Positions 1,086 to 55,225 of a DNA stretch of 64,000 bases are shown here, in pieces. A program made the translations under genes and the position numbers. The first letter of the stretch is position 1, and each line of letters opens with the position of its first letter. A model generated the notes under the pieces. That model did no database searches. It was not told where the DNA came from and saw only the letters and a list, made by a program, of their open reading frames with translations. The stretch lies in assembly GCA_041650915.1 (NCBI GenBank), contig JBAZKE010000006.1, positions 8,961 to 72,960 on the forward strand, read 5' to 3'. The stretch comes from Patescibacteria group bacterium (GTDB lineage Bacteria; Patescibacteriota; Patescibacteriia; UBA10025; JAHIVO01).

Positions 1086-1358
1086 ATGACACCTAAATTT
1101 ATTCGCGTTGCTGGGAAATTATACCGCAAGGCCGAGGGCCTCGAAGATATCGAAGCCGCACTCAATGCCGTCGTGAAGGCCAAGAGCGTGCTCCAGGGCC
1201 TCGGAATTGATTTCTCCGACCTCGTGCAGGCAGAGAAAACTCTCAAAGCAGAAGCTCCGAAACCCAGCACGCAAAAGATTGATGCCGCGGTAAAGCCGGC
1301 GCCAGAATTAATTCGCGTCGCCGGCAAACTCTATCGCAAAGTACCAACCCCAGCCTAA
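1086..1358 (+). CDS. Small protein (90 aa) carrying the hairpin tag at both ends (N: KFIRVAGKLYRK; C: ELIRVAGKLYRK)
   Basis: AAGGAAAG RBS 6 nt before the ATG. Identical 10-aa peptide at both termini, encoded by diverged DNA. Confidence 0.65.
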   Translation: MTPKFIRVAGKLYRKAEGLEDIEAALNAVVKAKSVLQGLGIDFSDLVQAEKTLKAEAPKPSTQKIDAAVKPAPELIRVAGKLYRKVPTPA

Positions 1359-1630
1359 TGTCACTATTTGCCAACAATTTCCTGGTAAAGCAAATCGAAG
1401 CGGAAGTCTTGCGAGATCATCTCGCAGACTTCGAATTAATTTCTGGCGTGGCCAGGCGGCACTTCGATTTGATTCCAGGCATTGAATTGGCAAAACTAAT
1501 TTCCGAACTCACGCAGGACCAGTACAAGTTATTTGACCGCTGGTTCTCTGAGCAGCCGCGCTATAATTTTGCCGTCGCCGTGCGAACCGCTCTGGCACTT
1601 TGCGTGGCGATCAAGTTGATCGAGAAATAA
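1358..1630 (+). CDS. Hypothetical protein (90 aa)
   Basis: ATG overlaps the upstream stop (TAATG), suggesting translational coupling. No motif. Confidence 0.45.
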   Translation: MSLFANNFLVKQIEAEVLRDHLADFELISGVARRHFDLIPGIELAKLISELTQDQYKLFDRWFSEQPRYNFAVAVRTALALCVAIKLIEK

Positions 1631-1631
1631 A

Positions 1632-2117
1632 TTGGATTTGCTAACCCTAGCCCACGCCTTAGCCGTCTGGCCTGAACGCGGCCCAGTCAGTCCAGGTGTA
1701 GCGCAGGAGTTTCCAGAAATTAATCCCTGGGCTTCCCGTGCAGTGCTCTACGGAGCAGAAATGCACGTTGCTTACCCGTTGGCACCTTCTATATATCCCA
1801 GATATTTCGATAAGCCGGTTGTCAAGCAGCACAAGCCTACAGGACCATCTCGATCTTCTGCTCTGGTAATTCGTCCCGGTTCTACTTTGCCTGTAACTCT
1901 AAATGGGCATCAGGCCACGGCAAACGTTGACTCCGCGCGCCGTATTCAGTATTCGGGCAAATACACGCATTTGAAATTGACCCTAATCGTCAACACTGAA
2001 AAATTACCCCTGACACTGCAAAACGAAACCAAATGTGCGTGCCTGTACTGTGGTACAGAGCCCCGGGGAAATGATTTCACGTGCCGTTCATGCGGCTCTC
2101 CGTTACCGGATTGCTAA
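1632..2117 (+). CDS. Hypothetical protein with C-terminal zinc-ribbon (CxxC-x14-CxxC)
   Basis: ORF with TTG start as given in the track. C-terminal 'CACLYCG...CRSCG' motif. Start codon uncertain. Confidence 0.4.
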   Translation: MDLLTLAHALAVWPERGPVSPGVAQEFPEINPWASRAVLYGAEMHVAYPLAPSIYPRYFDKPVVKQHKPTGPSRSSALVIRPGSTLPVTLNGHQATANVDSARRIQYSGKYTHLKLTLIVNTEKLPLTLQNETKCACLYCGTEPRGNDFTCRSCGSPLPDC

Positions 2118-2123
2118 TTATTC

Positions 2124-2396
2124 ATGCGTAACACGATTAAATATCTTGGTGTCGAATATGTGAGAGTCGCCGAAGCGCAAGACGCTTTGAGCACCGCACT
2201 GCAGCAGCTTAAAAATGCTAGAGAACAACTCAAGCACGCTACCGGTGATTATGGCAATAAGGCAACGTTGGCCAAAGCAATCGCTAGTGCTGATTCTTGG
2301 ATCGAGGCGGCGAGAAATAAAATTAAACAGCACGTCAAACAAATGCAAGAACCGCACATCGCCTCGGCAGAACTAGATAATATAGCCGACGAGTAA
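2124..2396 (+). CDS. Hypothetical small helical/coiled-coil protein
   Basis: 90-aa ORF, Q/K/A-rich heptad-like composition. Confidence 0.45.
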   Translation: MRNTIKYLGVEYVRVAEAQDALSTALQQLKNAREQLKHATGDYGNKATLAKAIASADSWIEAARNKIKQHVKQMQEPHIASAELDNIADE

Positions 2397-2497
2397 ATCT
2401 CAGGTACTCGACCCGCGGCAATGAATTAAATAGTTTCGATTCCACCTTAATTTTTGGTTAGAGTCAGTTTTGATACCAAGAAACTGGTTTGTGGTAT

Positions 2498-2580: not shown

Positions 2581-3384
2581 ATGGCCCTACAGCCCACTAT
2601 GTCTCGTCAATCCAAGCTCGATATGACCCGTTCTTATTTCCAGCGTCGTGAGGAATTCGCTCTCACGGCCGCGACCAACCTCGTCGAGGAAGGCCAGCTC
2701 GCCGCTATGGGCGGGACTGTGGGGCGCGAAGTCACGACCACTGGCGGTCTCGCGGTGACTGAGGTTCCCGCAGGCGTAATGCTTCTCGGTTACATCGATG
2801 CCAATACTTTCTCTTACTGCGAAAGCGGCACCGTACCGGCTTCTCTGTCCTACACCTTGAAGTTCAACAATCTCGTAGTCAATCCCTACACTACGCCGCT
2901 TGTTGACGCCTTCGTGGCGATCAATTCCACCGGGCTCGAGATTCCAGTGGTTGCCCCGGCTCCCGCAAACGGCCAAGTTAGCATCGCGGGCGCCACAGGC
3001 GTCATGACGTTTGCCGCACTTCAGGCCGGTGGCGCGCTTTCGATGGTCGGCGTAGTATTCACCGTGCGGTATCGCTGGACACTTACGACTGTACAGGCGC
3101 GAGAGATCGTGCGTCAGTCAGCGATCGGTCGTGGCTCTGAAGGTACTTACCGCAAAGCCATCGTAGGTCGCGGCGACGGTTGCCGTTGCTTCACTACGAC
3201 TTATGATGCTGATGGTGTGTGGGAGCTAAATCGTCAGGACGGCGCTGCTGGTTCTCCGGTGCTCGGGGCTGGTGGTGTATGGACGACCTTCACGAATAAC
3301 AACAACGGAACTCCGTTCGGGCGCGTTGTATCTCTCCCGAGTGTGAACGATCCATACCTCGGTATGGAATTCACGACTCCCTAA
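2581..3384 (+). CDS. Virion structural-like protein, tandem paralog A (267 aa)
   Basis: Strong RBS AGGAGGA, an intrinsic terminator immediately downstream, and a paralog next door (shared N-terminus MxxQPxxSxQSKxDxTRSYFQRREExALTAAT and C-terminus SLNDPYLGxEYTTP). Confidence 0.7.
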   Translation: MALQPTMSRQSKLDMTRSYFQRREEFALTAATNLVEEGQLAAMGGTVGREVTTTGGLAVTEVPAGVMLLGYIDANTFSYCESGTVPASLSYTLKFNNLVVNPYTTPLVDAFVAINSTGLEIPVVAPAPANGQVSIAGATGVMTFAALQAGGALSMVGVVFTVRYRWTLTTVQAREIVRQSAIGRGSEGTYRKAIVGRGDGCRCFTTTYDADGVWELNRQDGAAGSPVLGAGGVWTTFTNNNNGTPFGRVVSLPSVNDPYLGMEFTTP

Positions 3385-3610: not shown

Positions 3611-4405
3611 ATGGCTATTCAGCCGGGCGCAAGCCTGCAAAGCAAGTATGATCAGACCCGCAGTTATTTCCAGCGGCGAGAGGAATACGCTCTCACTGCT
3701 GCCACCGTCCTCGTGGAGGAAGGCCAGCTAGCGGTTCGTGCTGGGACTTCTCTCACGACCGTAACGACTTCAACCGGTGCTGCGCTTGAGATGCCGGTCG
3801 GCGTAATGCTTCTTGGGGAAATTGACGCCAATACTTTTACTTGGGTCGAGACTTTCACGATCCCTAACGCGGCAATTCCGACCTTCACACTCAAGTACAA
3901 CAACCTCGCGCCGTCGAACTACACGCTCGGTCTCGCTGATAACAGCGACATCTATGTGTACGACAACACCGCTGCCGGTCAGATGGCGCAGGCCAACCCG
4001 GCTCCCGCGGACAATCAGTTCTCTTGCACGGCCGCAACTGGCGTGCTGCGTTTCCACATCAACGACATTGGTCACTCTGTGACCGCGCGTTACCGGTGGA
4101 CCCTCACGACTCCGCAGTCACGCGAGATCGTACGCCAGTCGGCTGTGGGCCGCGGGTCAGAAAATACTTATCGCAAGGTAATTATCGGCCGCGGTAACAA
4201 CTGCCGAATTTACACTACGATGTACAGCCCGCAGGCACTCTGGACTCTGAATCTTCAGAGTGGTCTCCTGAACTCCCCGGCGCTGGGCGCGGGTGGCATT
4301 TGGTCGACCGTGACCCAGTCGACCACCGGCGTGCCATTTGGCCGTGTAATTCAGCTACCGAGTCTCAATGATCCCTACCTGGGCATTGAGTACACGACTC
4401 CTTAA
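3611..4405 (+). CDS. Virion structural-like protein, tandem paralog B (264 aa)
   Basis: RBS TAGGAGG. Homologous to the 2581..3384 product over its full length. Confidence 0.7.
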   Translation: MAIQPGASLQSKYDQTRSYFQRREEYALTAATVLVEEGQLAVRAGTSLTTVTTSTGAALEMPVGVMLLGEIDANTFTWVETFTIPNAAIPTFTLKYNNLAPSNYTLGLADNSDIYVYDNTAAGQMAQANPAPADNQFSCTAATGVLRFHINDIGHSVTARYRWTLTTPQSREIVRQSAVGRGSENTYRKVIIGRGNNCRIYTTMYSPQALWTLNLQSGLLNSPALGAGGIWSTVTQSTTGVPFGRVIQLPSLNDPYLGIEYTTP

Positions 4406-4445: not shown

Positions 4446-5561
4446 ATGTCTATTTATCGCAACAAGATCGTGAACCGGCAGGGCGAGGACGTTGCTCAGC
4501 AGCCCCGACTTGCTACTCGCAGTAACGGTACCGTGGAGCGCACCGCGGCTCCGCTCGTCAACGCCAAGGGCGAGTACAACGCCTTCGATCAGAAGGATCT
4601 CAAGAACATCCTCATGACCCTGGCGAACCAGGTCGAGTCCGGCGAGATGCAGCGCGTGACTGCCGTCGACGAGGATGCGGCTTCCCGCCTCGTGACTGCT
4701 GCTCTGACCGAGCGCAACGCTGACCTCCGCGGCGGTGCCTTCGAGCGCGTCGGCCAGGTCGTCACGGACATGATTTCTGAAACGATGGGCCGCCAGTCGT
4801 TCTCAGATAAGATCTTCGCCCGCATGGACGCCAAAGAGGGCGTGGGCTTTGTGCCGCCCGTGAAGGTCGATCAGATGGACGTTGTTGCTTGGCACTTGAC
4901 CGCCAACGGCCAGGTTGCCGAGTCTCTCGTCAATCCCAAGTTCATCTACCCCGAGGGTTATTGGCTCCAGACTCTAGTGTACGTTGAAGAGCAGGATCTG
5001 TATTTCGCAGGTTCCAGCTTCCTCGAGCAGAAGCACCAGCGTGGTCTCGAGGCCATGCTCGTCCGCCAGGACAACGTGGCCAAGTTCCTCCTCGACGCCG
5101 CTGCCCCCGTGGCCAACGACGTCGTGACGTTCGGTACCTTCACCCCGACCGTCGCGGGTATTCTCCGTGATCAGGTGTGGCGTTGGAGTCTGACCCCCAC
5201 CACGATGCTCCTCGCTGTCGACCTCCAGCGGGACATTCTGTCTGATGACGACTGGCACAACGTTTATTCGCCAATTCAGAAGCACGTCCTCTTTGAAGAG
5301 GGGAAATTCGGCGAGATCTACGGGATGGAAGTGTTCACCGACGGTTTCCGTTACCCGACCCTGCGCGTCCTAGACCCAGGCGAAGTGTACTTCCTGTCGG
5401 CCCCCACGACCCTCGGCGTGCACATTCCTCTCATTCCTCTGTACAGCGAGCCCGTAAATCGGCACTTCGAAGGCATCCCCAAGAAGGGCTGGTTCGTCGC
5501 TTCCTACCAGGCTACCGTCGTGGCCAACAGCAAGGGCGTGTCCAAGGGCATCAAGGTCTAA
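4446..5561 (+). CDS. Putative major capsid-like structural protein (371 aa)
   Basis: RBS AAAGGA. Size and position next to abundant structural paralogs. Product assignment is tentative, with no diagnostic motif. Confidence 0.55.
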   Translation: MSIYRNKIVNRQGEDVAQQPRLATRSNGTVERTAAPLVNAKGEYNAFDQKDLKNILMTLANQVESGEMQRVTAVDEDAASRLVTAALTERNADLRGGAFERVGQVVTDMISETMGRQSFSDKIFARMDAKEGVGFVPPVKVDQMDVVAWHLTANGQVAESLVNPKFIYPEGYWLQTLVYVEEQDLYFAGSSFLEQKHQRGLEAMLVRQDNVAKFLLDAAAPVANDVVTFGTFTPTVAGILRDQVWRWSLTPTTMLLAVDLQRDILSDDDWHNVYSPIQKHVLFEEGKFGEIYGMEVFTDGFRYPTLRVLDPGEVYFLSAPTTLGVHIPLIPLYSEPVNRHFEGIPKKGWFVASYQATVVANSKGVSKGIKV

Positions 5562-9821: not shown

Positions 9822-10024
9822 TGCCGCTCGCGAGATTCATTGTAGCGTGGTGCTGTGCGGCGGAGCTGCCCGACCGCAATGCAGTCATGAAATACTGTAC
9901 TTCCACCTTGGCTACGCTGCGTGACGTTCGGCATCATGGCCTCGCTGTAGAAGTCAGAGAAGCGATCAAGAAAGGTCGCGAGCGCTACATAAAAGATTTC
10001 ATTAAGGACCTGTCGTGCCGGTAG
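9821..10024 (+). CDS. Hypothetical small protein
   Basis: 67-aa ORF with GTG start overlapping the upstream stop. Weak support. Confidence 0.3.
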   Translation: MPLARFIVAWCCAAELPDRNAVMKYCTSTLATLRDVRHHGLAVEVREAIKKGRERYIKDFIKDLSCR

Positions 10025-10611
10025 ACCTGGATTCAGCAACGTTCCTGCAAATCGGCGAGCCCGTTGGCACTCCTGAGGGGCCCGGCGTCGTCGTGGACAT
10101 CGCGCTGAATCTAGCGAACTATGGCGGCGAATTGCAGATCGATCCGCCTGCCATTTCAGTAAAACTCGATTCAGGCAAAACCATACAGGCATGTCTCTGC
10201 AGCTTGGACTTCGGAGATCCAGACATCAATGCTGAAATTAGTCGAGAATTTGACCGTCTGTGGCCGCCCGTTGAATCCGTTCCAGAAGCTGGACTAGAGA
10301 GAACTGCCATCTCGCCTCGATACGATACAACGGTGTTGCTCGGCGAAACTCTAGAAGAGTTCGCGCCGGACGTTGCAGCCAAGGCAGCGGGTTTGGGTCT
10401 CGTGGACGCGATCAAAATCTACGATAAAGTCTATGCACCGCTAACGCGCGATCGACGTCCCGGTGAAGAGGTCATGCGCCTCGTTGAGCTGGAAAAGTAT
10501 TTGGTTATTGAAATGAATTCGATTCCCACCCACTATCGCGACACCATCGACACCTGGCTGATGCGGCAGTTTGAATTAAATGTCCGCTGGGTCGCTGTGC
10601 TACCCGCCTGA
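10015..10611 (+). CDS. Hypothetical protein (198 aa)
   Basis: ORF with GTG start overlapping the upstream gene end. Confidence 0.45.
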   Translation: MPVDLDSATFLQIGEPVGTPEGPGVVVDIALNLANYGGELQIDPPAISVKLDSGKTIQACLCSLDFGDPDINAEISREFDRLWPPVESVPEAGLERTAISPRYDTTVLLGETLEEFAPDVAAKAAGLGLVDAIKIYDKVYAPLTRDRRPGEEVMRLVELEKYLVIEMNSIPTHYRDTIDTWLMRQFELNVRWVAVLPA

Positions 10612-23402: not shown

Positions 23403-23457
23403 AATGCCGACAAAACTGCAATACCGTGGTCATGTTTACCGGCAAGCCAACCCCTGA
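23403..23457 (+). CDS. Tag-only mini-ORF (MPTKLQYRGHVYRQANP), possibly a frameshifted N-terminus of the 23426..24460 gene
   Basis: AAGGAAAA RBS 7 nt upstream. Encodes only the hairpin tag, then stops. Overlaps the next ORF in the -1 frame. Confidence 0.3.
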
Positions 23458-43041: not shown

Positions 43042-43269
43042 ATGTCACAAAAACTTCGTAAGTGCATTCAACTCGGTAAAGTGGTGGTTCGTAATCGGAC
43101 TTCCGGCGAAGTCATTGTGTATTACCCACTGCCAGACGGCTCGCCAGCGACTGCCACCATTTCCCCCGGTGGAAGTATGGAACTAGCGCCCAAGTTCACC
43201 ACGCCGGCCATGTTGATGAAATCCAACCTGGAAGAGCTGGCCCGCAAAGGCCACGTGACTTTCATATAA
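43042..43269 (+). CDS. Hypothetical small protein (75 aa)
   Basis: RBS AAAGGA. Confidence 0.45.
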   Translation: MSQKLRKCIQLGKVVVRNRTSGEVIVYYPLPDGSPATATISPGGSMELAPKFTTPAMLMKSNLEELARKGHVTFI

Positions 43270-46182: not shown

Positions 46183-46737
46183 ATGTCCGTACCTAAATTT
46201 ATCCGCGTCGCCGGTCAATTATATCGTTTGGCTGAGCCACCGCCGCAGTTCACACAGGACAAAGACGAGCTTGGGAAGCTCGAGGCAGATCTCGAGATGG
46301 CAGAATCTATTGGCGCTACCGAAAACGCCAAGCAGATTAGGCAAAAAATTGAACAGCTAAAAACAGCTTTCGCACCCAGAGATAAATATTATGCTGACAT
46401 GCCCGGCGCGAAGTACGTAATTGCACTTTCTCCCGAAGAAGAAGAGATTCTATTCCAGATCCATGAGGGACAGGGCGACGCCGTCTATGCAGTCGCGAGC
46501 CGCAGTCATAGCGCTGGGTTAACTTGGGTCACTGAGGACGAACTCTCGACCGTAGTGTCTCGTCTTGCCTGGCTGCTCAGTGACGCGACCATCACAGCGG
46601 AGATGTCGGAACAAGAGCAAGAGACTGCCGCCTCGCTTCTCTATGAACTAGAAAACCTATCGTCCGGCAGCACTGGAATTGAGTATCCTCCTGGTGTCAT
46701 CCGGGAATTTGATTTGCAGACCCCACCCAGCGCTTAG
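46183..46737 (+). CDS. Hypothetical protein (184 aa) with N-terminal hairpin tag MSVPKFIRVAGQLYRL
   Basis: RBS AAAGGT. Tag at residues 5-15. Confidence 0.6.
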   Translation: MSVPKFIRVAGQLYRLAEPPPQFTQDKDELGKLEADLEMAESIGATENAKQIRQKIEQLKTAFAPRDKYYADMPGAKYVIALSPEEEEILFQIHEGQGDAVYAVASRSHSAGLTWVTEDELSTVVSRLAWLLSDATITAEMSEQEQETAASLLYELENLSSGSTGIEYPPGVIREFDLQTPPSA

Positions 46738-46800: not shown

Positions 46801-48519
46801 ATGCCTGAAATTATTTATCGCGGCCAGCGCTATGTACTCCACACGGCAGCCGAAACCTATGCCCCGCCTGCCCCGCCGGCCAATTGGGAAACAAATAAGC
46901 AAGAATATATCACCAAAGTCATAGCCGATTTGGAGGCTTTGGGCGAACGCGTTTATACTTTGGGTATTGAAAGCGACGTTATCGCGGAGCAACCCGGAGA
47001 TGTCGACGCAGAAGTAACGCAAACCAAAGTAAAACAAGTCCGGCACGAGCTTAAACTCCAAGAAGCCGCCGGTAATGCCGAAGCTGTGGCTGCTCTCAAG
47101 GCGCAACTCGACGCACTGGGAATTAAGAAATCTACCACGGGTTTGGCATTGGATAACTTGGCCAAGGTAATTGACAATACAATCGCGGCAGTTGAACTCG
47201 GAGAGTATCTAATCAAAAACCCCACGGTGCCTGCAAAACGTGCGGTAAAAATTCCTATTACTGAAGTCGTACCAGAGCTTACTCGTATCGTTGATCAGTG
47301 GGAAAAGTTTGCGCTATCGAGTCGGCCGGCGTCCGATGTGCCCGATCAGCAGCGCAAAAAAGAAGAAGTCCTGGGCTTCCCTAAATTCGTGAAGGTACAG
47401 CTTGACTTCATCAATAAACACATTGTAGAAGCTACTGAATTAGTCAACCGTGCTGCAGTGACCGAAGGCCAGGATCCCGAGGAAAGCGCACGTATCCAAG
47501 CTGCGCAAGCCGCACTTCCTAGTTTTATGTACCGGCTCAAGGTTGTGAATGAATCCATCGCCAAAGGCAAATATGTAATTTCCAACCGTGTCGACCTGCT
47601 GGCTGAGATGGAAGATGCGCGGAAAGCCGCAGAAACTGCTGGCGACGCAGCACAGGCTGAAGAACTGCAGAAGCGTATCGATTGGGTGCAAGGTACTCAA
47701 ACAACCGATAAGGACCTGAAAGATCGATACATTAAAGACATTGTGAAAGAGTTGTTTACAGAGTTTAAAGCGCACTGGCTGGTGGCCAAGGCGCAAAAGG
47801 CTAAAGAAAAAGCCGAAGCTGACGCGAAGGCTAAGGCAGATAAGCCCGAAAAAGAAAAGAAACCGAAGGAACCCAAACCCGACAATCTCATGGAGGTAGT
47901 AAAAGAACTCCTGGCTACGCTGGAGGATATCAAAAATAAACAGCCTATGTTCTTGCAAACCGCAAAAGCGCGCGAGGGTTTCGATAAACTCGTGCAGGAC
48001 ACCATCGCGGTTGGAAAGGCTGTAGACGCTGGCGCCGCTTCTGTGACGCTGTCGTCTGGGGAATACCCAATCAAAGAGGCCGTGAAGCTGGTGCAAGACG
48101 GTATGCGACAGTACCGCAGCATGATGAAGCGAGAGTTTGAGCCCGGGGCCAGAGCGCAAGAGAAGCAAGTCGGTATGGGCAAGAGTCTGGAAGATCTAGA
48201 TAAAAAGATTGCGGAGATTGATCAGGCCATTTCTGCGGTTCGCAGCCAGCAGAGTCGTGCGTCTGCAGGTAGCCTGGAGTTGCTAGAACAAATCAAGCGA
48301 AAACCGGATCGTGCAAGCAAACTGCCTTTGATGGCCCGGCGAGATAAAATAGAGCACGAAGTAGCAGAGCTTACTAAGCAAATCGACACCCTGCGCAAAG
48401 AGCGTAGTTCTGTGAGTCTAGCGCGTGACAATCTGCTTAAAAGCGTACGGCCAGGCCCACAGGCCACACCCGAAGTTACCAAACCAACGGGTCCCATTTA
48501 CCAGACACCGGAGTTCTAA
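46801..48519 (+). CDS. Coiled-coil K/E-rich protein (572 aa) with N-terminal hairpin tag MPEIIYRGQRYVL
   Basis: RBS GGAGAA. Long heptad-rich stretches and a KAKEKAEADAKAKADKPEKEKKPKEPKP segment. Confidence 0.65.
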   Translation: MPEIIYRGQRYVLHTAAETYAPPAPPANWETNKQEYITKVIADLEALGERVYTLGIESDVIAEQPGDVDAEVTQTKVKQVRHELKLQEAAGNAEAVAALKAQLDALGIKKSTTGLALDNLAKVIDNTIAAVELGEYLIKNPTVPAKRAVKIPITEVVPELTRIVDQWEKFALSSRPASDVPDQQRKKEEVLGFPKFVKVQLDFINKHIVEATELVNRAAVTEGQDPEESARIQAAQAALPSFMYRLKVVNESIAKGKYVISNRVDLLAEMEDARKAAETAGDAAQAEELQKRIDWVQGTQTTDKDLKDRYIKDIVKELFTEFKAHWLVAKAQKAKEKAEADAKAKADKPEKEKKPKEPKPDNLMEVVKELLATLEDIKNKQPMFLQTAKAREGFDKLVQDTIAVGKAVDAGAASVTLSSGEYPIKEAVKLVQDGMRQYRSMMKREFEPGARAQEKQVGMGKSLEDLDKKIAEIDQAISAVRSQQSRASAGSLELLEQIKRKPDRASKLPLMARRDKIEHEVAELTKQIDTLRKERSSVSLARDNLLKSVRPGPQATPEVTKPTGPIYQTPEF

Positions 48520-48522: not shown

Positions 48523-49233
48523 ATGGCCAACGCAGTTAAATTCAACGGTGCGCTTTATGTAATTGCAGGCAAACCTGCGGCCGGAACTCCACGTAACACC
48601 ACTTGGACGAAAAAACAGTTCAAGCACTACACATCACCAGTTAAAATGCCGGGTGTGCGCACCGACGTCATCCAAGGAGACGAAGCTGCTGTACAAACAG
48701 AAATTAATCAGCTTAGGCGGGACATCGCAAAAGCTAAAGCTAGTTATGACAGCTTACTAGATCAGCGCAATCAGCAGTACGATAAACGAACTATTTCTCT
48801 CGAGGCGACGCGCTCGCCGGAGCGTAATCGGCTGATCCGGGAATCAGAGCAAAAGATACTCGAACTAGATGCAAAACTAGACCGAATGGAAAAAGGCATC
48901 GAGCGCCTGATTGAAACACTAAACGAAAAACTAAATGCTCAGGTTTCCGAGACACCAAGCCCAGCAGATCCAGGAGGTCTCGTGGTCGAATATGACCCCA
49001 TCAAGGTGCGCAAGCAGCAAGAGCTGCAGCGTGATTTGGCACAACTGCAGTCACACAAAGAAAAGCTATTAGCTGTGCAGCAAAAGTTCCTGCGGGATAA
49101 GTCTCAGCCGATGAGCGAAACTGCGGATAAACTCATCAAAAAAGATCTGCTCGACACCGACGACATGATCGCACAAAAGCAGCACATGCTCAGGGCTCTG
49201 TCGGCGCCTGCAGACCCAATGCTCAAGGATTAA
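48523..49233 (+). CDS. Coiled-coil protein (236 aa) with degenerate N-terminal tag MANAVKFNGALYVI
   Basis: RBS GGAG. Tag is weaker (no R after the Y). Confidence 0.55.
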   Translation: MANAVKFNGALYVIAGKPAAGTPRNTTWTKKQFKHYTSPVKMPGVRTDVIQGDEAAVQTEINQLRRDIAKAKASYDSLLDQRNQQYDKRTISLEATRSPERNRLIRESEQKILELDAKLDRMEKGIERLIETLNEKLNAQVSETPSPADPGGLVVEYDPIKVRKQQELQRDLAQLQSHKEKLLAVQQKFLRDKSQPMSETADKLIKKDLLDTDDMIAQKQHMLRALSAPADPMLKD

Positions 49234-49235: not shown

Positions 49236-49973
49236 ATGACGCCTAAATATATTCGTGTAGCTGGTAAACTATATCGTGCCTGCCCCTGTACTGAAGTTCC
49301 TGCTGCGGAGCATGCAGATGTAGTGCGCGAAGAACTCGAGATGCAGGGCTTTTCCGCGGTGCCATGCCAGGAACCCAAGAAAGTGTGTGTAGAGACTCCG
49401 CCAGCCCAGCCACAGATTTCGGCTCCACAACGCATTGAAACTACACAACGCTCAGCGCCGCAGTTCATTCGAGTACAAGGGCAAGTTTATAAAAAGGCGG
49501 CGGCAAATCTTCCTGCTGTTGCTGCTGGAACGCTCAAAGCGCTGAATCGCGTCAGAATGCAAATTACTGCAATTCTGGGCGAAGCCGATCGCGGGGACGA
49601 AGACCGCGCGTCGGACACCGTCTGTATTTCCAATGTTCCAGGTGAGTTTCAGGTGCTGTCGGCCGATGCGCTGGGTGAGCGCGCACGTGAGGCGCTGGAA
49701 CTACTGTACAATTCTATCGCGCTGTGGGAGCGCAGCGCTACCGTCGCGTTGGCGGAGAATGAGATCATGCAGCACGCGTACGTGCTGCTCAATGACGTGC
49801 ACGGCGCAGTGTCTGAGGCCGTTGAATCCGGCATTAATGCGCAGCCTGGATTTTTCTGTGTAGAGCGCGAAAAGTTCTTCGGTCTGGTATCGGATATCTC
49901 TGCGTGCATGCAAGCCTTCACGAAGCTAGAGCGGATGTTGACCCAGAAATACAGCGTAGCCTCCGTCTCTTAG
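49236..49973 (+). CDS. Hypothetical protein (245 aa) with two hairpin tags (N-terminal KYIRVAGKLYR; internal QFIRVQGQVYKK at 49461-49496)
   Basis: RBS AAGGAT. Two tag copies. Confidence 0.6.
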   Translation: MTPKYIRVAGKLYRACPCTEVPAAEHADVVREELEMQGFSAVPCQEPKKVCVETPPAQPQISAPQRIETTQRSAPQFIRVQGQVYKKAAANLPAVAAGTLKALNRVRMQITAILGEADRGDEDRASDTVCISNVPGEFQVLSADALGERAREALELLYNSIALWERSATVALAENEIMQHAYVLLNDVHGAVSEAVESGINAQPGFFCVEREKFFGLVSDISACMQAFTKLERMLTQKYSVASVS

Positions 49974-50008: not shown

Positions 50009-50593
50009 ATGTCACAGCGCCTCCAATTCCGTGGGCACAACTACCGCCTGTACACTCCGAAAAGCCAACGCCGTGAATTTCGCATGGCGGTTGCGGGTCT
50101 ATGGCGCGACGTCACGACAGTAATTCGGTATCTCGCAGAAAAAGGAATTGATCCAGTAGTTGTCGGCGGCCTCGCCGTGCAACACCACGGCGTAGAGCGT
50201 CTGACCGAAGATATCGATATCTTGATCTCCAGAGCTGCATACACGAAGCTCGTTGAGGAAGGCAAGATTAAGTTCGGGCAGCTGAAAATCATCCCCGGCA
50301 CGGAAATCGATGTGCTGACCGAGGGAAAGGACAACAACCCCGATCCTGAATTCATTCGAGCCGGAGATTCTAATTTCCCGACGTTTGCCGGTTTGATCTA
50401 CCTGAAGCTGAAAGCGAACCGACTTAAAGACCGAGGCGATGTCGCGGAGCTACTTAAAGCCCACGAGTTCAATATCGAGGAACAGCAGGAAATCCTAACG
50501 TTCCTGCCAGAAGAGCTAAAAATTAGATTTTTAGCCATTTGGGACGAAGCCGGGCAAGAGCACGACAAACGCAAGCAAATGGTGGAAGAATAA
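50009..50593 (+). CDS. Nucleotidyltransferase-fold (AbiEii-like) protein (194 aa) with N-terminal tag MSQRLQFRGHNYRLY
   Basis: Leaderless ATG. VVGGLAVQHHGVERLTEDIDILI matches the GG...G..R.T.DiD minimal NTase signature. Confidence 0.6.
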   Translation: MSQRLQFRGHNYRLYTPKSQRREFRMAVAGLWRDVTTVIRYLAEKGIDPVVVGGLAVQHHGVERLTEDIDILISRAAYTKLVEEGKIKFGQLKIIPGTEIDVLTEGKDNNPDPEFIRAGDSNFPTFAGLIYLKLKANRLKDRGDVAELLKAHEFNIEEQQEILTFLPEELKIRFLAIWDEAGQEHDKRKQMVEE

Positions 50594-51252
50594 TGCAACG
50601 TGTGTTTTCAACGCTGAACGATCTCATCGCGCAAGGCGTTATTACCGATTATGCTCTTGGTGGCTCCGTTGCGTTCATGTTTTACTGCCAGCCGTTCCTG
50701 ACCAACGACACCGATTTCTTTGTACAAATGCCGGGAAGCGGACTGCTAGTCTCGCTCTCGCCAATCTACGCTTACGCGGCAGAACATAATTTTCCTCTGG
50801 ACCATGAGCACATCGTTGTCGATGACGAGCCGGTGCAAATCATTCCAGCGCCCTCACCACTCTACGACGAAGCAATCGCTACAGCGCAGCAGCGGACAAT
50901 CGAAGGACAGAATGTAAAGGTCATGCTGCCGGAATATCTCGTCTGCACGGCACTGAATGCCGGCCGAATGAAAGATTTCGCAAAAATCGAAAAACTGCTC
51001 GAGGAAGCAGAAGTCGATCTGAGTAAACTAAAGGAACTCATTACCCGGTTTCAGCTATCTGCGCAGTGGAAGCGCTACCTTGTCGCCATTGGAGTTACTG
51101 ATCCAGCTTTTCTGCATTTGGCGGAAACAAAAGCAACCTGGCGCCGTGCACAAGCCGATAAACGGATGGAAGACAAACTACAAGAAATAAAAAAGCTGCG
51201 CACCAGAGTCAGCGCAATCCGCTATAGAAACGCACTGTACAGACCTGTTTAA
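50593..51252 (+). CDS. Second nucleotidyltransferase-fold-like protein (219 aa) with C-terminal tag IRYRNALYRPV
   Basis: ATG overlaps the upstream stop, with GGAAGA RBS. ALGGSVAFMFYCQPFLTNDTDFFV. The track's overlapping start at 50539 was rejected. Confidence 0.55.
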   Translation: MQRVFSTLNDLIAQGVITDYALGGSVAFMFYCQPFLTNDTDFFVQMPGSGLLVSLSPIYAYAAEHNFPLDHEHIVVDDEPVQIIPAPSPLYDEAIATAQQRTIEGQNVKVMLPEYLVCTALNAGRMKDFAKIEKLLEEAEVDLSKLKELITRFQLSAQWKRYLVAIGVTDPAFLHLAETKATWRRAQADKRMEDKLQEIKKLRTRVSAIRYRNALYRPV

Positions 51253-51335: not shown

Positions 51336-52079
51336 GTGCGTTTATTGTGCGGAGGCACGAAGCAGCCGCAGTACTGCTGTAAAACGGCAGCACGCCGCCA
51401 GTGCGCGGTGCGGAGAACACCGGTGCTTACCAGCGATAAAACTGTAGATGGACGTTTGATTACTAGTTTGTCCCCTTGTAGTGAACGCAGAGTTTCTGTC
51501 AAATGCGACACGTGTGGCGTGATCAACACCACTAGTTATGCCAACTACAACCGGGCGCAAAAGACGACGCACAATGGATCCGGGCGAACAACGTGTAGAA
51601 AATGTGCAGTAACAAAATCGGCGCTAGCACGCAAAGGCAAACCACGCGCACCTAAACCAAAACTGCCGCCAGAACAATTAGGGGCAAACCACAAAAGTTG
51701 GCGTGGCGGCAGGTACATCGACGCAAACAATTATGTAATGGTACACCAGCCAGACAGAAGTAAAGCCAGAACAACCGGCTGGGCGCACTATCGTAAAGAA
51801 CATATCGTCGTTATGGAACAGCACATAGGCCGACGCCTGTTGCCCAATGAAACTGTACACCATATAGACGGAAACAAACAAAATAATGTGCTGTCCAATC
51901 TGTATTTAGTACACTCGCACGCAGAACACCGCAACGCGCACACGTCCCTGCAGCAAATAGGTTATGCGCTCATTAGAACCGGTATGCTTACGTTTGACCT
52001 ACAAAATGGGCAGTACATCGTGGGCGAAGCGCTTCAGCACCTGTTAGACCTTGCTAAAACAACTGAAGGGAACACCTGA
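51336..52079 (+). CDS. HNH homing endonuclease (247 aa)
   Basis: VHHIDGNKQNNVLSNLYLVHSHAEHRNAH (HNH motif). N-terminal CxxC...CxxC. AT-rich. Start codon uncertain. Confidence 0.65.
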   Translation: MRLLCGGTKQPQYCCKTAARRQCAVRRTPVLTSDKTVDGRLITSLSPCSERRVSVKCDTCGVINTTSYANYNRAQKTTHNGSGRTTCRKCAVTKSALARKGKPRAPKPKLPPEQLGANHKSWRGGRYIDANNYVMVHQPDRSKARTTGWAHYRKEHIVVMEQHIGRRLLPNETVHHIDGNKQNNVLSNLYLVHSHAEHRNAHTSLQQIGYALIRTGMLTFDLQNGQYIVGEALQHLLDLAKTTEGNT

Positions 52080-52682: not shown

Positions 52683-52980
52683 AGTTTTCCTTTTGTTTAG
52701 CGGCGTCCCTTCATTTTAGACACATAGCGTTACAGACATAGCGCCTTTGAAACAAGCAACAGCCTTAATAGATTACGAGTAGATCATGATTTTAATGTTT
52801 CCTTCTTGCGGTCTTGCGGTATCCCCTTTTGTATCATAAACTATAGTAGGTGTCAAGAACAAAAACAGTACGAGGAACGCGCGGTGTTCAGCACGGCACA
52901 AATAAAAATTGTGTCTGTGGAGTCTATAAACACCAGAACCGTCAAAACGCGCAAAACCGTTAAACTTCTTAGGAGGTACC

Positions 52981-53649
52981 ATGTACTCAGCACAAGCTTC
53001 TCGCTTCATAGGTTTTGATACATCGACGTACTGCTCACCCCAGTATGCCAGAATTCTCTGGGATGCCGGGTACAGGCTGGCGATTCGGTATATTCGGCGG
53101 GATAAACACGTCAACGCCGTGCCAGACCTCAATGGCCTGGTTTCGCTGTCGCTTCAGGAGCGTGACGAACTCCTGAGCATTGGGTTCAAGATTACATGCG
53201 TGCAGTTCGCCAAACTCTCGCTCGTGCCATCAACCGCCGAAGGCACTGCGGCAGCCGAAGCTGGAGTTTACAACGCCAAAGCTTTGGGATTCAAGGCCGG
53301 CGACACTATTTGGTACGATTTTGAGTGGTCTACCTCGCAAAATGCTTCTGCAGTAATGAGTTACATCGACGCCATTGGTAAATACACCGTGGCGAATGGC
53401 TTCAAAATGGGGTCCTACGTCGGTCCCAATTGTAGTCTTTCTGGTGATCAGTGGTATGCGCGGCCCTACTGCACGGCGTACTGGAAATCCGGCGCGATTG
53501 TGCCTTGGGTTACGCAACGTGCGTTCCAGCTGATCCAGGGAGTTCCCATCACTGTCGGCAAGACGAGCACACGGGCCGGCATCAACATTGATCAGGATAT
53601 CGTGTGTTATGACAACAAAAATGAAATTTTCTCTTGTCTCGCGGCCTAA
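52981..53649 (+). CDS. Putative glycoside hydrolase / lysin-like protein (GH25- or Rv2525c-like)
   Basis: Very strong RBS TAGGAGGT. GFDTSTY...AIRYIRR pattern reminiscent of GH25/DUF1906-type lysin domains. Tentative. Confidence 0.5.
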   Translation: MYSAQASRFIGFDTSTYCSPQYARILWDAGYRLAIRYIRRDKHVNAVPDLNGLVSLSLQERDELLSIGFKITCVQFAKLSLVPSTAEGTAAAEAGVYNAKALGFKAGDTIWYDFEWSTSQNASAVMSYIDAIGKYTVANGFKMGSYVGPNCSLSGDQWYARPYCTAYWKSGAIVPWVTQRAFQLIQGVPITVGKTSTRAGINIDQDIVCYDNKNEIFSCLAA

Positions 53650-53652
53650 CGA

Positions 53653-54288
53653 CTATAGATCCATCACGACGGGCTTCCCGACGACGTTGCCGAACCGATC
53701 CATCTGCGTGACGTTCAGCGCTTTGGTCCTGGCATAGTGCTGCTTCCCATTGCCGTGACTGAAAACATGGAGTCGCGGAGCGCGCTGCCGCACGATTTCC
53801 GCCAGGCCGCCGAATTCCGGCGGGCAGTGAGTAATCAAAATATCGAGGCCCTCGGGAATGTGGCACCAGCGATGGATCATGTAGTCGTCATGATCGCAAA
53901 ATGCACCCGCCAGGCTAAACTCTCGACTGAATGACCACGGAGACCACGGCGTACCGAAAATTTTGAAGCCTTCAACTTCCACGGTTTCGTCGACCAAAAC
54001 CTTAGCGTTGTAAAGGCGCGAAATTGCCTCGGTCTCGTTGGCATCGCACCATTCGTCTCGGTCACCGAATACGACGAATTTGTACTTGTGCGGTAGGCGC
54101 CCGAGCAACGCGTTGAAACGGTCGACGTCGTAGCGTGTACCGAACGTGGAGCTGAAGTCCCCGGTGCAAATCAGTACATCACCATCGGGAACCGACAGCA
54201 GGTAGTCTTCGTGGTGGGTGCATCCAATAAAAACGAAGCGCATGGGGACCTCCTGACTACAGTGTAGCAGAAGTGGACAACGCGTCAA
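53653..54288 (-). CDS. Calcineurin-like metallophosphoesterase (211 aa)
   Basis: FIGCTHH, LICTGDF and GNG/HxH motifs. Strong RBS AGGAGGT on the - strand. Confidence 0.7.
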   Translation of the reverse strand: MTRCPLLLHCSQEVPMRFVFIGCTHHEDYLLSVPDGDVLICTGDFSSTFGTRYDVDRFNALLGRLPHKYKFVVFGDRDEWCDANETEAISRLYNAKVLVDETVEVEGFKIFGTPWSPWSFSREFSLAGAFCDHDDYMIHRWCHIPEGLDILITHCPPEFGGLAEIVRQRAPRLHVFSHGNGKQHYARTKALNVTQMDRFGNVVGKPVVMDL

Positions 54289-54325
54289 GATGCAACTTCA
54301 CCTTAGTTTATAGACAGGAGACAGC

Positions 54326-55225
54326 ATGACTACACCAAATAAAATCCGAGTTCGCGGTGACGTGTACGAACTCGTGAAAAACGTAGCGCCGCTGGCGCAA
54401 ATGGACCTCGCCGACGAGATGTCCCAAGATATGCGGTTGGCCCAAAATGAGTTCGTGACGACGGTAGAGAACGTCATCGATGCCGTGGATGAAATCGATC
54501 CGCGCGGCCTTGCATCTCCCATCGCCGGAATGGCCGCGCCAATCGGCAAGATATTCACCAAAGCGCAAGGAATCCTCAAACTATTTCAACACGACAAAAT
54601 CAGCGTGGAACTCTACAAATTGGAGTACGGTCGTTGGTACTTGGTACACGAGCTGGTGCGTGTGGCCTATCACTTTGCGCGCCAAGATTACTACAAGCGA
54701 GACAACAAACTAGATATTGACACCGTGGTCAGCGCACTTGACTACGACAAAACACTAAAAGAACTGCGGCAAGACCACGAGCGCTATTACGCGGCAGCCG
54801 CATCTAAAATACTGCTGCGCTTCATTAAGGCCGGCAGTGAGGATGACACCCCTGTCGTACAGGATTCGAAAACAAGGCGTGAGCTAGACCTCAGTGCCGT
54901 GACGATACAGCGAATTAAGGACACCATTAAGCACGTGCTGCAGGCTGCACTTGACCTCGGAACCGCCACGGCCGAAACCCTGGACAAATACGACAGCGCT
55001 GCTCGGCATCTCGCGGCAGCTACAAATCTGGCTAAAGAAATCGCCAAGGCGCCGCAGATGTTGATGAAACCTGAACCCCTGACTCCGCCAGAGCACAAAG
55101 AGCGCATCGATACAGACGCTACAATAAGTAAATCCGTTGAGGACGAGCCCACCGCCATTGATCCGCGCGTAAAGCACGGCACCTACCTTCACTACGCCGG
55201 AAAAACCTACCGTCCACTCACGTAG
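54326..55225 (+). CDS. Hypothetical protein (299 aa) with hairpin tag at both termini (N: NKIRVRGDVYEL; C: YLHYAGKTYRPLT)
   Basis: RBS CAGGAGA. Tag-like peptide at residues 6-16 and in the last 13 residues. Confidence 0.6.
   Translation: MTTPNKIRVRGDVYELVKNVAPLAQMDLADEMSQDMRLAQNEFVTTVENVIDAVDEIDPRGLASPIAGMAAPIGKIFTKAQGILKLFQHDKISVELYKLEYGRWYLVHELVRVAYHFARQDYYKRDNKLDIDTVVSALDYDKTLKELRQDHERYYAAAASKILLRFIKAGSEDDTPVVQDSKTRRELDLSAVTIQRIKDTIKHVLQAALDLGTATAETLDKYDSAARHLAAATNLAKEIAKAPQMLMKPEPLTPPEHKERIDTDATISKSVEDEPTAIDPRVKHGTYLHYAGKTYRPLT

What the first reader, a model, noticed from the sequence alone, without database searches (positions are those of the whole stretch)
1086..55225. A beta-hairpin-like peptide tag (KFIRVAGKLYRK family) sits at the N- and/or C-termini of at least 13 unrelated proteins
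The same short peptide recurs at protein ends: aromatic/aliphatic-R-(x0-2)-[GND]-x-hydrophobic-Y-[RK]. N-terminal copies start at 1086, 11429, 22644, 23403, 44184, 46183, 46801, 48523, 49236, 50009 and 54326. C-terminal copies occur in 1086..1358, 50593..51252 and 54326..55225. A second, internal copy lies at 49461-49496 in 49236..49973. The carrier proteins share nothing else: sizes run from 90 to 572 aa, and some are coiled-coil while two are NTase-fold. Where both ends of one protein carry it, the DNA of the two copies has diverged synonymously, so the peptide itself, not a DNA repeat, is what is conserved. The predicted shape is strand-turn(G/N)-strand. It could be a virion- or compartment-targeting or processing signal (analogous to the T4 capsid-targeting sequence), a docking strand for a common partner, or a nucleic-acid-binding hairpin. 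I do not recognise it as a named domain.
Basis: seen in the sequence. Interest (0 to 1): 0.9.

Follow-up and report, generated by a model that had tools for sequence, protein, structure and literature searches.

The report
Shared hairpin peptide tag on phage proteins
About one in six proteins of this uncultivated phage carries the same undescribed 14-residue basic peptide at an end or in a linker, and related environmental phages (contigs up to 350 kb) carry it on enzymes and a sigma factor, so it looks like a shared address label whose destination is still unknown.

Summary
The window holds 16 copies of one peptide module in 13 proteins. Its consensus is P-K-[FY]-I-[RK]-[VYF]-x-G-x-[VLT]-Y-R-[LRK]-[AV].

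- **Significance:** A model trained only on copies from other contigs recovers 10 window sites at 8 bits or more. The best hit in a non-coding frame scores 4.7, and 200 shuffles never exceed 6.6.
- **Selection on the peptide:** Identical IRVAGKLYR peptides differ at 5-6 of 9 codons, all synonymously.
- **No named family:** Nothing matches in Pfam, PHROGs, PDB sequences, GenBank phages, species-representative genomes or the papers searched.
- **Spread:** I found 110 distinct tags in about 20 metagenomic phage contigs, including ones of 260 and 350 kb. Of these, 47 are N-terminal, 17 C-terminal and 46 internal, with up to five per protein. Cargo includes a sigma-70 factor, a Nudix protein, a GNAT and nucleotidyltransferases. 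Some proteins are little more than tags and spacer.
- **Best reading (inferred, confidence 0.4):** a modular docking peptide that brings a protein set to one phage structure, most likely the assembling head.
- **Rivals:** an intracellular hub, nucleic-acid binding, self-association, or an unfoldase signal.

The sequence family is new. The kind of device (a short targeting peptide) has precedents.

The parts
1086..1133 (+). N-terminal tag of the 90-aa protein 1086..1358 (MTPKFIRVAGKLYRKA); the protein is tag, about 60 aa, tag
   Evidence: outside-trained profile 26.7 bits; SD-like TAAGGA 7 nt upstream
1302..1343 (+). C-terminal tag of 1086..1358 (PELIRVAGKLYRKV, then PTPA*)
   Evidence: 16.9 bits; differs from the N-terminal copy at 5 codons, all synonymous
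2124..2168 (+).
   Evidence: in-window profile 15.0 bits; outside profile 5.1 bits, borderline
11429..11461 (+). N-terminal tag of the 472-aa protein 11429..12847 (MLYRGHLYRLA); the start overlaps the upstream stop codon
   Evidence: 10.9 bits
22644..22688 (+). N-terminal tag of the 247-aa protein 22644..23387 (MTRYLVYRNAVYRIA); variant with N at the turn
   Evidence: 16.8 bits with the in-window profile; not above noise with the outside profile
23404..23448 (+). Tag ORF MPTKLQYRGHVYRQA(NP*), stop at 23455-57; one frame off from ORF 23426/23432..24460
   Evidence: 23.3 bits. Removing one C from the run AACCCCTGA (23449-23457) would fuse the tag to the 342-aa ORF (read from the sequence)
44184..44225 (+). 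N-terminal tag of the 123-aa protein 44184..44555 (MDTFVFRDAVYRRV); variant with D at the turn
   Evidence: 15.3 bits; 6.4 bits with the outside profile, borderline; GGAGGT 4 nt upstream
46183..46233 (+). N-terminal tag of the 184-aa protein 46183..46737 (MSVPKFIRVAGQLYRLA, then EPPP linker); the cargo is a conserved domain also found with and without tags elsewhere
   Evidence: 34.6 bits; homologues P0014, P0022-P0027
46801..46842 (+). N-terminal tag of the 572-aa helical protein 46801..48519 (MPEIIYRGQRYVLH)
   Evidence: 13.6 bits with the in-window profile; not above noise with the outside profile
48523..48567 (+). N-terminal tag of the 236-aa coiled-coil-like protein 48523..49233 (MANAVKFNGALYVIA)
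   Evidence: 8.2 bits
49236..49283 (+). N-terminal tag of the 245-aa protein 49236..49973 (MTPKYIRVAGKLYRAC); NCBI's gene call starts 29 codons downstream and omits it
   Evidence: 19.9 bits
49458..49499 (+). Internal tag of 49236..49973 (PQFIRVQGQVYKKA), 72 residues after the first
   Evidence: 28.1 bits
50009..50053 (+). N-terminal tag of the 194-aa nucleotidyltransferase-like protein 50009..50593 (MSQRLQFRGHNYRLY)
   Evidence: DUF2204 21.3 bits, cut-off 20.3; 11.9 bits; the 46%-identical homologue in L017 also starts with a tag
51208..51249 (+). C-terminal tag of the 219-aa nucleotidyltransferase-like protein 50593..51252 (VSAIRYRNALYRPV*)
   Evidence: DUF2204 20.6 bits; 13.8 bits with the in-window profile
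54326..54376 (+). N-terminal tag of the 299-aa protein 54326..55225 (MTTPNKIRVRGDVYELV)
   Evidence: 17.9 bits; AGGAG 5 nt upstream
55178..55219 (+). C-terminal tag of 54326..55225 (GTYLHYAGKTYRPL, then T*); weaker
   Evidence: 13.0 bits; 5.9 bits with the outside profile, borderline
32189..32236 (+). Doubtful: N-terminus of the 1176-aa protein (MAIGDIRLTNSRYVRP) fits the loose pattern, but no linker follows it and no profile scores it
   Evidence: identical in the relative L001; absent from the profile hits

Best explanation
The tag is a self-contained basic peptide module of about 14 residues that probably folds as a beta-hairpin. It is joined by flexible Pro/Ala/Ser-rich linkers to either end of otherwise unrelated phage proteins, or placed between their domains.

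It acts as a shared docking label. Every protein that carries it is brought to the same phage-specified structure. Proteins with several tags and little else (1086..1358 here; P0007-like proteins elsewhere) act as multivalent linkers.

The destination I think most likely is the assembling head: the scaffold core or the inner capsid surface. Tagged enzymes and regulators would then be packaged and delivered into the next cell with the DNA. This would resemble phage T4's capsid-targeting sequence on internal proteins, or the cargo-loading peptides of encapsulins.

Shown: the module exists, is selected as a peptide, is portable, prefers accessible positions, is multivalent, and sits on diverse cargo. 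Inferred: the hairpin fold, the docking function and the destination.
For: **Portability**
- The same module sits on unrelated cargo in the window.
- Outside the window it sits on a sigma-70 factor with five copies (P0003, Sigma70_r2 E=3e-15), a NUDIX protein (E=7e-16), a GNAT (E=7e-6) and DUF2204 nucleotidyltransferases.
- Homologues of one cargo domain carry 0, 1, 2 or 3 tags in different positions.
- The NTase homologue in L017 keeps an N-terminal tag of another sub-class, with a different linker.
- The relative L001 has a tag on an unrelated ORF at the genomic position of the window's 22644 and 23404 carriers.

**Accessibility and valency**
- Of 110 tags, 47 are N-terminal, 17 C-terminal and 46 internal. 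C-terminal copies mostly end at +6 to +9. Tandem copies are 16-22 residues apart. There are up to five per protein.
- The flanks are rich in Ala, Ser, Pro, Lys and Glu.

**Selection on the peptide:**

**Lean towards the head**
- Tagged genes 1086 and 2124 lie just upstream of two virion structural protein paralogues and the major head protein (4446..5561, phrog_2522 E=5e-36).
- The tagged gene 11429 lies in the block after the head protein.
- In L006 a homologue of the 46183 cargo domain sits directly after the head protein gene.
- In L024 a DUF5661 protein with two tags, and P0008 with four tags, lie beside a homologue of window gene 10015..10611, a gene of the window's head-proximal block.
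- The cargo types (nucleotidyltransferase, acetyltransferase, Nudix, sigma factor) are ones a phage could use on arrival. T4 packages Alt and IPI in this way (my knowledge; T4 capsid-targeting sequence reviewed in PMC3012670).
Against: - No binding partner is identified, and no virion data exist.
- The densest tag clusters (window 44-55 kb, L008, L010, L011) lie next to DNA ligase and SbcC-like genes, not head genes.
- Internal and tandem copies are not features of the T4 capsid-targeting sequence.
- No conserved protease site flanks the tags.
- No prohead protease, portal or scaffold was recognised in the window.
- The hairpin fold is only weakly predicted, and one model gives helices.
- Thirteen or more packaged proteins is a lot for a contig of 78 kb, although the head protein's relatives are jumbo phages.
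Confidence: 0.4

Rival explanations
1. The tag docks its carriers onto a hub inside the infected cell rather than the virion. Candidates are a replication, recombination or transcription factory, or one abundant phage or host protein.
For: - The main tag clusters sit beside DNA ligase and SbcC-like genes in the window, L008, L010 and L011.
- Cargo acts on nucleic acids or nucleotides: sigma-70, NUDIX with a ParB-like motif seen by eye, and nucleotidyltransferases.
- One tagged ORF has a weak UvsY match, below Pfam's cut-off.
Against: - No hub is identified.
- Five window carriers lie in the structural half of the window (1086, 2124, 11429, 22644, 23404).
- Tagged proteins flank head-module genes in L024.
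- Known hub-binding peptides (clamp or SSB partners) are short linear motifs, not hairpins (my knowledge).
Confidence: 0.25
2. The tag itself binds DNA or RNA. It would be a small basic hairpin used like an AT-hook to tether proteins to nucleic acid. Two-tag proteins would then bridge or condense DNA.
For: - Mean net charge of the 14-residue unit is +2.6, against -0.2 for random 14-mers of the same proteins.
- It has an invariant Tyr and conserved Arg/Lys.
- It occurs in several copies on a sigma factor.
- AT-hook-rich proteins occur nearby in L008 (by eye).
Against: - Six positions are conserved hydrophobic residues (-5, -4, -2, +2, +5, +6). That is more typical of a protein-protein interface.
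- I know of no isolated 14-residue hairpin that acts as a general DNA binder.
- There is no obvious reason for acetyltransferases or nucleotidyltransferases to need DNA tethering.
Confidence: 0.12
3. The tags bind each other. Multi-tag proteins would form a network or condensate, and single-tag proteins would join it as clients. This would resemble scaffold-client condensates or amyloid signalling motifs.
For: - Valency ranges from 1 to 5, and some proteins are only tags plus spacer.
- If the module is a hairpin, conserved hydrophobic residues would lie on both faces, so it would be unlikely to stay monomeric (inference).
- Two sub-classes coexist in one genome.
Against: - The tags are highly charged and lack the Asn/Gln/Gly-rich make-up of known amyloid motifs.
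- No structural prediction of tag-tag pairing could be obtained.
Confidence: 0.1
4. The tag is the recognition signal for an AAA+ unfoldase or protease, for example the phage's own classic-clade AAA+ protein. It would mark proteins for unfolding, translocation or timed removal.
For: - The window encodes a VCP/katanin-like AAA+ protein on the opposite strand, 62261..63958.
- Terminal, linker-attached peptides are how such machines usually pick substrates (my knowledge).
Against: - No homologue of the AAA+ gene was found in any other tag-bearing locus fetched, though those loci are short.
- Internal and tandem copies, and the strict Gly and Tyr, are not expected of a degron.
Confidence: 0.05
5. 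The tag is a single unit of an already named hairpin repeat or domain that the profile searches missed because it is so short. Candidates are DUF4278 (whose 'YRG' motif I recall from memory) and cell-wall/choline-binding repeats.
For: - The sub-class L-x-Y-R-G-x-x-Y resembles the YRG motif I recall for DUF4278, the N-terminal part of cyanobacterial IF17 (PMC6212724, PMC6316151).
- The roughly 20-residue tandem period resembles choline-binding repeats (my knowledge).
Against: - No Pfam family matched ten tag peptides at E<=10, or ten multi-tag proteins at E<=1.
- The whole-library search found only about 15 true relatives, all of this phage type.
- No glutamine riboswitch or other such context was found.
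Confidence: 0.05

Closest known systems
Capsid-targeting sequence of phage T4 internal proteins (IPI, IPII, IPIII, Alt)
   Same: A short peptide shared by otherwise unrelated phage proteins, some of them enzymes used on arrival in the host. The carrier genes are partly in the head gene cluster and partly scattered (PMC3012670 and my knowledge).
   Different: The T4 sequence is N-terminal only, about 10 residues, has an unrelated consensus (MKTYQEFIAE), and is removed by the prohead protease. The tag here also occurs at C-termini, internally and in tandem, and no flanking cleavage motif was found. Packaging is untested.
Cargo-loading peptides of encapsulins and encapsulation peptides of bacterial microcompartments
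   Same: Short peptides at the N- or C-terminus, joined by a flexible linker to unrelated enzymes. They dock cargo to the inside of a protein shell. Encapsulin shells have the same fold class as tailed-phage capsids (my knowledge).
   Different: Different sequences and predicted shape (extended peptide or amphipathic helix, against a probable hairpin). Those systems are cellular organelles, not viruses. No shell binding has been shown here.
DUF4278 (PF14105), the N-terminal part of the cyanobacterial glutamine synthetase inactivating factor IF17
   Same: As I recall it, a short N-terminal Y-R-G motif resembling the L-x-Y-R-G-x-x-Y sub-class. That region of IF17 promotes stability and binding rather than catalysis (PMC6316151).
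   Different: No Pfam match. DUF4278 is a domain of about 50 residues in small cyanobacterial proteins behind glutamine riboswitches (PMC6212724). No such riboswitch is in the window.
Cell-wall/choline-binding repeats (CW_binding_1) and similar 20-residue hairpin repeats
   Same: A hairpin pattern of hydrophobic-x-basic-x-x-G-x-aromatic-Y, with a roughly 20-residue period when in tandem (my knowledge of the repeat).
   Different: Those work only as long tandem arrays on secreted proteins. Here single copies dominate (43 of 70 proteins), and no Pfam match was found.
AT-hook
   Same: A very short basic module scattered in one to several copies over unrelated proteins and attached by linkers.
   Different: The AT-hook (core R-G-R-P) has no conserved hydrophobic residues and binds the DNA minor groove as an extended peptide. 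The tag has six conserved hydrophobic positions.
Amyloid signalling motifs (bacterial BASS, RHIM)
   Same: Short terminal motifs shared between different proteins, working through beta-structure pairing (my knowledge).
   Different: Those pair two or three partner proteins encoded side by side and are rich in Gly, Asn and Gln. Here 13 or more carriers per genome share a strongly basic motif.

Membership tests
Pfam DUF4278 (PF14105) | A match to the family profile | tested here: not met
   hmmscan of ten tag-bearing peptides at E<=10 and of ten multi-tag proteins at E<=1 returned no DUF4278 hit. HMMER's filters may drop very weak hits.
Pfam DUF4278 (PF14105) | Small cyanobacterial protein, often behind a glutamine riboswitch | tested here: not met
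   The Rfam scan of the window found only HEARO RNA. The carriers are phage proteins of 90-572 aa.
Cell-wall/choline-binding repeat (CW_binding_1) | A match to the repeat profile, in long tandem arrays | tested here: not met
   No Pfam hit on proteins with 2-5 tags. 43 of 70 tag-bearing proteins have a single copy.
T4-type capsid-targeting sequence | Strictly N-terminal position | tested here: not met
   17 C-terminal and 46 internal copies among 110.
T4-type capsid-targeting sequence | Followed by a prohead-protease cleavage site and removed on maturation | tested here: inconclusive
   Glu/Asp at +7 in 17 of 46 N-terminal tags, against a 14.5% background, but no consistent motif. No protease gene was recognised in the window. 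Cleavage itself cannot be tested here.
T4-type capsid-targeting sequence | Carriers are found inside the virion | not testable with these tools
   Needs virion proteomics of a phage that has not been cultivated.
Encapsulin-type cargo-loading peptide | Short terminal peptide on a flexible linker, shared by unrelated cargo | tested here: met
Encapsulin-type cargo-loading peptide | Encoded together with a shell protein of the tailed-phage capsid fold class | tested here: met
   A major head protein gene is at 4446..5561 (phrog_2522, E=5e-36). This is true of any tailed phage, so it is weak evidence.
Encapsulin-type cargo-loading peptide | The peptide binds the inner face of the shell protein | not testable with these tools
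   No complex prediction or binding assay is available.
Known structure families (PDB) | Sequence relative with a solved structure | tested here: not met
   A profile search of PDB sequences gave only chance hits (E>1), to hairpins in GAPDH and a fungal effector.

The most novel reading that the evidence does not exclude
These phages, whose related contigs reach 260-350 kb, use one peptide 'zip code'. Single hairpin tags would mark a whole toolkit of enzymes and even a sigma factor as cargo. Multi-tag proteins would act as the glue that loads this toolkit into the head for co-injection. That would be a viral counterpart of encapsulin cargo loading and an alternative to fusing effectors into one giant polyvalent protein.
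Probability: 0.3. Interest if true: 0.9.

Novelty: new variant of a known kind. Interest (0 to 1): 0.78.

Why it matters
- **Reading dark-matter genomes:** A short, portable address label shared by a sixth of a phage's proteins would give a direct handle on genomes where almost nothing has a name. All tagged proteins could be grouped as one functional set.
- **Clues to early infection:** If the destination is the head, the tag would reveal which enzymes these phages deliver with their DNA. That points to the host defences they face.
- **A possible tool:** It would offer a 14-residue tag for loading foreign proteins into capsids.
- **If the destination is elsewhere:** An intracellular hub or self-assembly would point to a new way phages organise infection.
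- **Annotation:** Automated gene calls sometimes drop the tag by choosing a downstream start, so the family is under-represented in protein databases.

Tried and rejected
**Rejected explanations**
- Chance: outside-trained profile plus shuffles.
- DNA repeat: synonymous divergence.
- Tags not translated: Shine-Dalgarno-like sequences or translational coupling at 11 of 12 starts.
- A tag on the head protein itself: its N-terminus SIYRNKIVNR looked tag-like, but it is not conserved in the L006 homologue and no profile scores it.
- A shared promoter for tagged genes: TTAGTAGTT lies upstream of 44184 and 46183, but its count in the window is no higher than chance.
- A conserved cleavage site flanking the tags: none found.

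**Searches that found nothing**
- Pfam on tag peptides and multi-tag proteins.
- PHROGs on the carriers.
- PDB sequences.
- A Foldseek search of the P0014 model against PDB, no match at E<=0.001.
- GenBank phages, by megablast of 12 kb of the window and by tblastn of a double tag. A single tag is too short for tblastn to detect.
- 41 kb around the head protein gene of Pseudomonas phage PaBG.
- 185,579 species-representative genomes, by the strict DNA pattern. The one match was a chance hit.
- Literature searches on DUF5661 and on jumbo-phage packaging motifs.

**Technical dead ends**
- The word-indexed protein search with a tag-only alignment gave nothing.
- Exact look-ups of the window's own proteins found no record.
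- I could not walk further upstream on the related IMG/VR contig to see the orthologues of 1086 and 11429.

Full report
**What the window is**

Nearly all long ORFs lie on the + strand and G+C is about 0.52. Recognisable genes are:
- a major head protein at 4446..5561 (phrog_2522, E=5e-36);
- two paralogous virion structural proteins at 2581..3384 and 3611..4405;
- lectin-fold tail-fibre-like proteins at 16949..20137;
- an ATP-dependent DNA ligase at 56414..57979;
- several HNH endonucleases, one with an RRXRR domain;
- a classic-clade AAA+ protein on the minus strand.

So this is a tailed phage. One window protein is in NCBI as part of a 78-kb contig of a metagenome-assembled genome labelled 'Patescibacteria group bacterium'. 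Nothing in GenBank phages matches at the DNA level. The head protein is 28-31% identical to those of jumbo phages such as PaBG, Lu11 and BcepSauron.

Anchored on the turn residue, the copies align without gaps.

Minor corrections:
- The copy given as 23403 begins at ATG 23404. It is a 17-codon ORF one frame off from the long ORF it precedes.
- A further N-terminal copy exists at 2124..2396.

This gives 16 copies in 13 proteins, about one in six of the roughly 85 genes.

**Tests against chance**
- Position matrices trained on one sub-class (FIRVAGKLYR) rank members of the other (LQYRGHVYR) near the top of 19,829 positions, and the reverse. The cross-hits fall at protein ends.
- A profile built only from 64 tags found in other contigs scores ten window sites at 8.2-34.6 bits and three more at 5.1-6.4. 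The best hit in any other frame or on the minus strand is 4.7. Two hundred within-protein shuffles never exceeded 6.6.
- Three copies score below that noise level with the outside model and depend on the in-window model: 22644 and the 50593 C-terminus (both with Asn at the turn) and 46801. They are the least secure.
- The three identical IRVAGKLYR peptides differ at 5-6 of 9 codons, always synonymously. No two copies share more than 12 bases of exact DNA. Selection therefore acts on the peptide.
- Eight of the twelve N-terminal tag ATGs have a Shine-Dalgarno-like sequence at the right distance, and three others abut the upstream stop.

**It is a family, not a quirk of one genome**

A profile search of 1.84 billion representative proteins found 20 hits at E<=0.001. 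About 15 are clearly the same module, at N-termini, at C-termini and in linkers, with two to five copies per protein. The others are unrelated hairpin repeats or translated junk.

A degenerate DNA pattern for the core found the tag in:
- IMG/VR contigs of 60, 260 and 350 kb;
- eleven metagenome loci, two of them from those same 260- and 350-kb contigs.

Each locus has several tagged genes side by side. One 8.7-kb contig (L005) has about 14 tags. The same pattern gave only a chance hit in 185,579 species-representative genomes.

Pooling everything gives 110 distinct tags in 70 proteins: 47 N-terminal, 46 internal and 17 C-terminal.
- **Consensus:** P(-7) K [FY] I [RK] [VYF] x G(0) x [VLT] Y(+3) R [LRK] [AV](+6). 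Gly is present in 96% and Tyr in 97%.
- **Charge:** mean net charge is +2.6, against -0.2 for random 14-mers of the same proteins.
- **Tandem copies:** 16-22 residues apart.
- **C-terminal copies:** mostly end at +6 to +9, so +6 looks like the edge of the unit.
- **Flanks:** rich in Ala, Ser, Pro, Lys and Glu, with no consistent cleavage motif.

**It is not a named domain**

There was no Pfam hit on ten tag peptides at E<=10 or on ten multi-tag proteins at E<=1. The carriers have no PHROG match. A profile search of PDB sequences gave only chance matches. tblastn of a double tag found nothing in GenBank phages. The papers I searched do not describe it.

The L-x-Y-R-G-x-x-Y sub-class reminded me of the 'YRG' motif of DUF4278, the N-terminal part of cyanobacterial IF17 (PMC6212724, PMC6316151). 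That is a recollection, and the profile test did not support membership.

**What it is attached to**

In the window most carriers have no recognisable domain. The exceptions are two adjacent DUF2204-type nucleotidyltransferase-like proteins, one tagged at the N-terminus and the other at the C-terminus.

Elsewhere the cargo includes:
- a sigma-70 family protein with five tags: two at the N-terminus, two internal and one at the C-terminus (Sigma70_r2 E=3e-15);
- a 740-aa NUDIX protein (E=7e-16);
- a GNAT acetyltransferase (E=7e-6);
- a nucleotidyltransferase 46% identical to window 50009..50593, with its own N-terminal tag of a different sub-class and a different linker.

One cargo domain (window 46183..46737) recurs in nine proteins carrying zero, one, two or three tags in different places. 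The relative L001 is 75% identical in the 1176-aa protein. At the genomic position of the window's 22644 and 23404 carriers it has a tag on an unrelated 173-aa ORF.

Some proteins are little more than tags and spacer. The 90-aa protein 1086..1358 is tag, about 60 residues, tag. The first 87 residues of 49236..49973 have the same layout.

**Shape**

The sequence pattern fits a hairpin: alternating hydrophobic residues on each side of an almost invariant Gly, with Asn or Asp as the only substitutes. I see a resemblance to the first hairpin of ubiquitin (my knowledge).

AlphaFold2 with an 8-sequence alignment gave strand-turn-strand for the first and last tags of P0014, at low confidence (pLDDT about 44-66), and disorder for the middle one. 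With a 2-sequence alignment it made the 1086 protein all-helical at pLDDT 64. The fold is therefore plausible but not established.

**Mechanism**

The facts point to a portable, accessible peptide module, used at valencies of one to five, whose job does not depend on what it is attached to. That describes a docking or addressing tag.

Where it docks is inferred. I lean towards the assembling head for these reasons:
- Tagged genes 1086 and 2124 lie just upstream of the structural paralogues and the head protein.
- 11429 lies in the block after the head protein.
- In L006 the homologue of the 46183 cargo domain follows the head protein gene directly.
- In L024 a DUF5661 protein with two tags and a four-tag protein lie next to the homologue of window 10015..10611, which belongs to the window's head-proximal block.
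- The cargo types are ones a phage could use immediately after injection. T4 does this with Alt and IPI through its capsid-targeting sequence (PMC3012670 and my knowledge).

Evidence against this lean:
- The densest clusters lie beside DNA ligase and SbcC-like genes.
- Internal and tandem copies are unlike T4's signal.
- No protease site, protease or scaffold was recognised.

Rivals that remain open are an intracellular hub or factory, direct nucleic-acid binding (the tag is strongly basic), tag-tag self-association with multi-tag proteins as scaffolds, and recognition by the phage's AAA+ protein. No other tag-bearing locus I fetched shows that AAA+ gene, though those loci are short.

**Verdict**

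The feature is real, statistically robust, under peptide-level selection and undescribed. It is widespread in a group of uncultivated phages whose related contigs reach 350 kb. The kind of device has precedents (T4 capsid-targeting sequence, encapsulin and microcompartment targeting peptides). The sequence family, its mixed terminal, internal and tandem use, and its reach across so many proteins are new. The function is inferred, not shown.

Noticed in passing
window 23404-23460: The tag ORF (MPTKLQYRGHVYRQANP) stops at CCC-TGA (23452-23457), while the 342-aa ORF continues in the +1 frame. Removing one C from the run of four would fuse them as ...YRQANPEWWGQDQ.... This could be an assembly indel, a real frameshift mutation, or a programmed +1 shift at a slippery Pro codon before a stop.
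   Followed up: partly
window 58910-59123 (+) and 58984-60906 (+): HEARO RNA (Rfam RF02033, 100 bits, E=2e-19) overlaps the start of a 640-aa ORF with RRXRR and HNH domains. This is the layout of an IscB-type RNA-guided nuclease with its guide RNA, carried by a phage.
   Followed up: partly
window 62261-63958 (-): A 565-aa AAA+ protein of the classic clade lies on the opposite strand to almost everything else. Its best PDB sequence matches are VCP-like ATPase, katanin and Rix7. This is unusual for a phage, and it is a candidate reader of terminal tags.
   Followed up: partly
window 16880-16900 and 51453-51473 (+): A 21-base motif, CGTTTG[C/A]TTA[G/C]TAGTTTGTCC, occurs twice (19 of 21 bases identical), against none in 100 shuffles. 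One copy lies just upstream of the tail-fibre-like gene 16949. The other lies inside or upstream of ORF 51336..52079. Its function is unknown.
   Followed up: partly
window 49236-49973; L005 6347-6718 and 6834-7955: Automated gene calls start downstream of the tag. NCBI's version of the 49236 protein is 216 aa instead of 245. Two JGI calls in L005 also begin after the tag. Tags are therefore under-represented in protein databases.
   Followed up: partly
window 5635-9384 (+): A 1249-aa protein directly after the head protein gene has an N-terminal DUF5661 domain. One segment (residues 831-876) resembles a separate small protein in L024. In L024 a DUF5661 protein carries two tags. This may be a fused, multi-module counterpart of the tagged proteins.
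   Followed up: partly
window 46183-46737; P0014, P0022-P0027: A conserved domain of about 90 residues (core ...PPEYNIPV.A.DLDPEV.SWFHSSQGDP.YALGSRL.AYGETLAS.EEL...) has no Pfam, PHROG or PDB-fold match. AlphaFold2 models it confidently (pLDDT 85-92). It occurs with and without tags, and directly after the head protein gene in L006.
   Followed up: partly
window, whole: The contig is deposited as part of a 'Patescibacteria group bacterium' genome bin, but it has a phage head protein, structural genes and no tRNA. It is more likely a phage contig binned with that genome than bacterial chromosome. The host is unknown.
   Followed up: partly
window 2581-3384 / 3611-4405; 24753-25226 / 25258-25737; 60915-61283 / 61294-61611: There are three pairs of adjacent paralogous genes. 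The last pair both start MKIRTGFVSNSSSSSFLIWG.
   Followed up: no
window 12857-14059, 27483-28241, 43269-44150, 52044-52682 (-): Several likely homing-endonuclease genes are present: an HNH/endonuclease VII match at 12857, GIY-YIG-like by eye at 27483, and HNH-like by eye at 43269. A ThyX-like ORF (by eye) lies on the minus strand inside the tagged gene cluster.
   Followed up: no
L008 913-1494: In the 260-kb relative, a protein with many KKRGRPPKK (AT-hook-like) repeats lies about 2 kb upstream of the tagged gene cluster.
   Followed up: no
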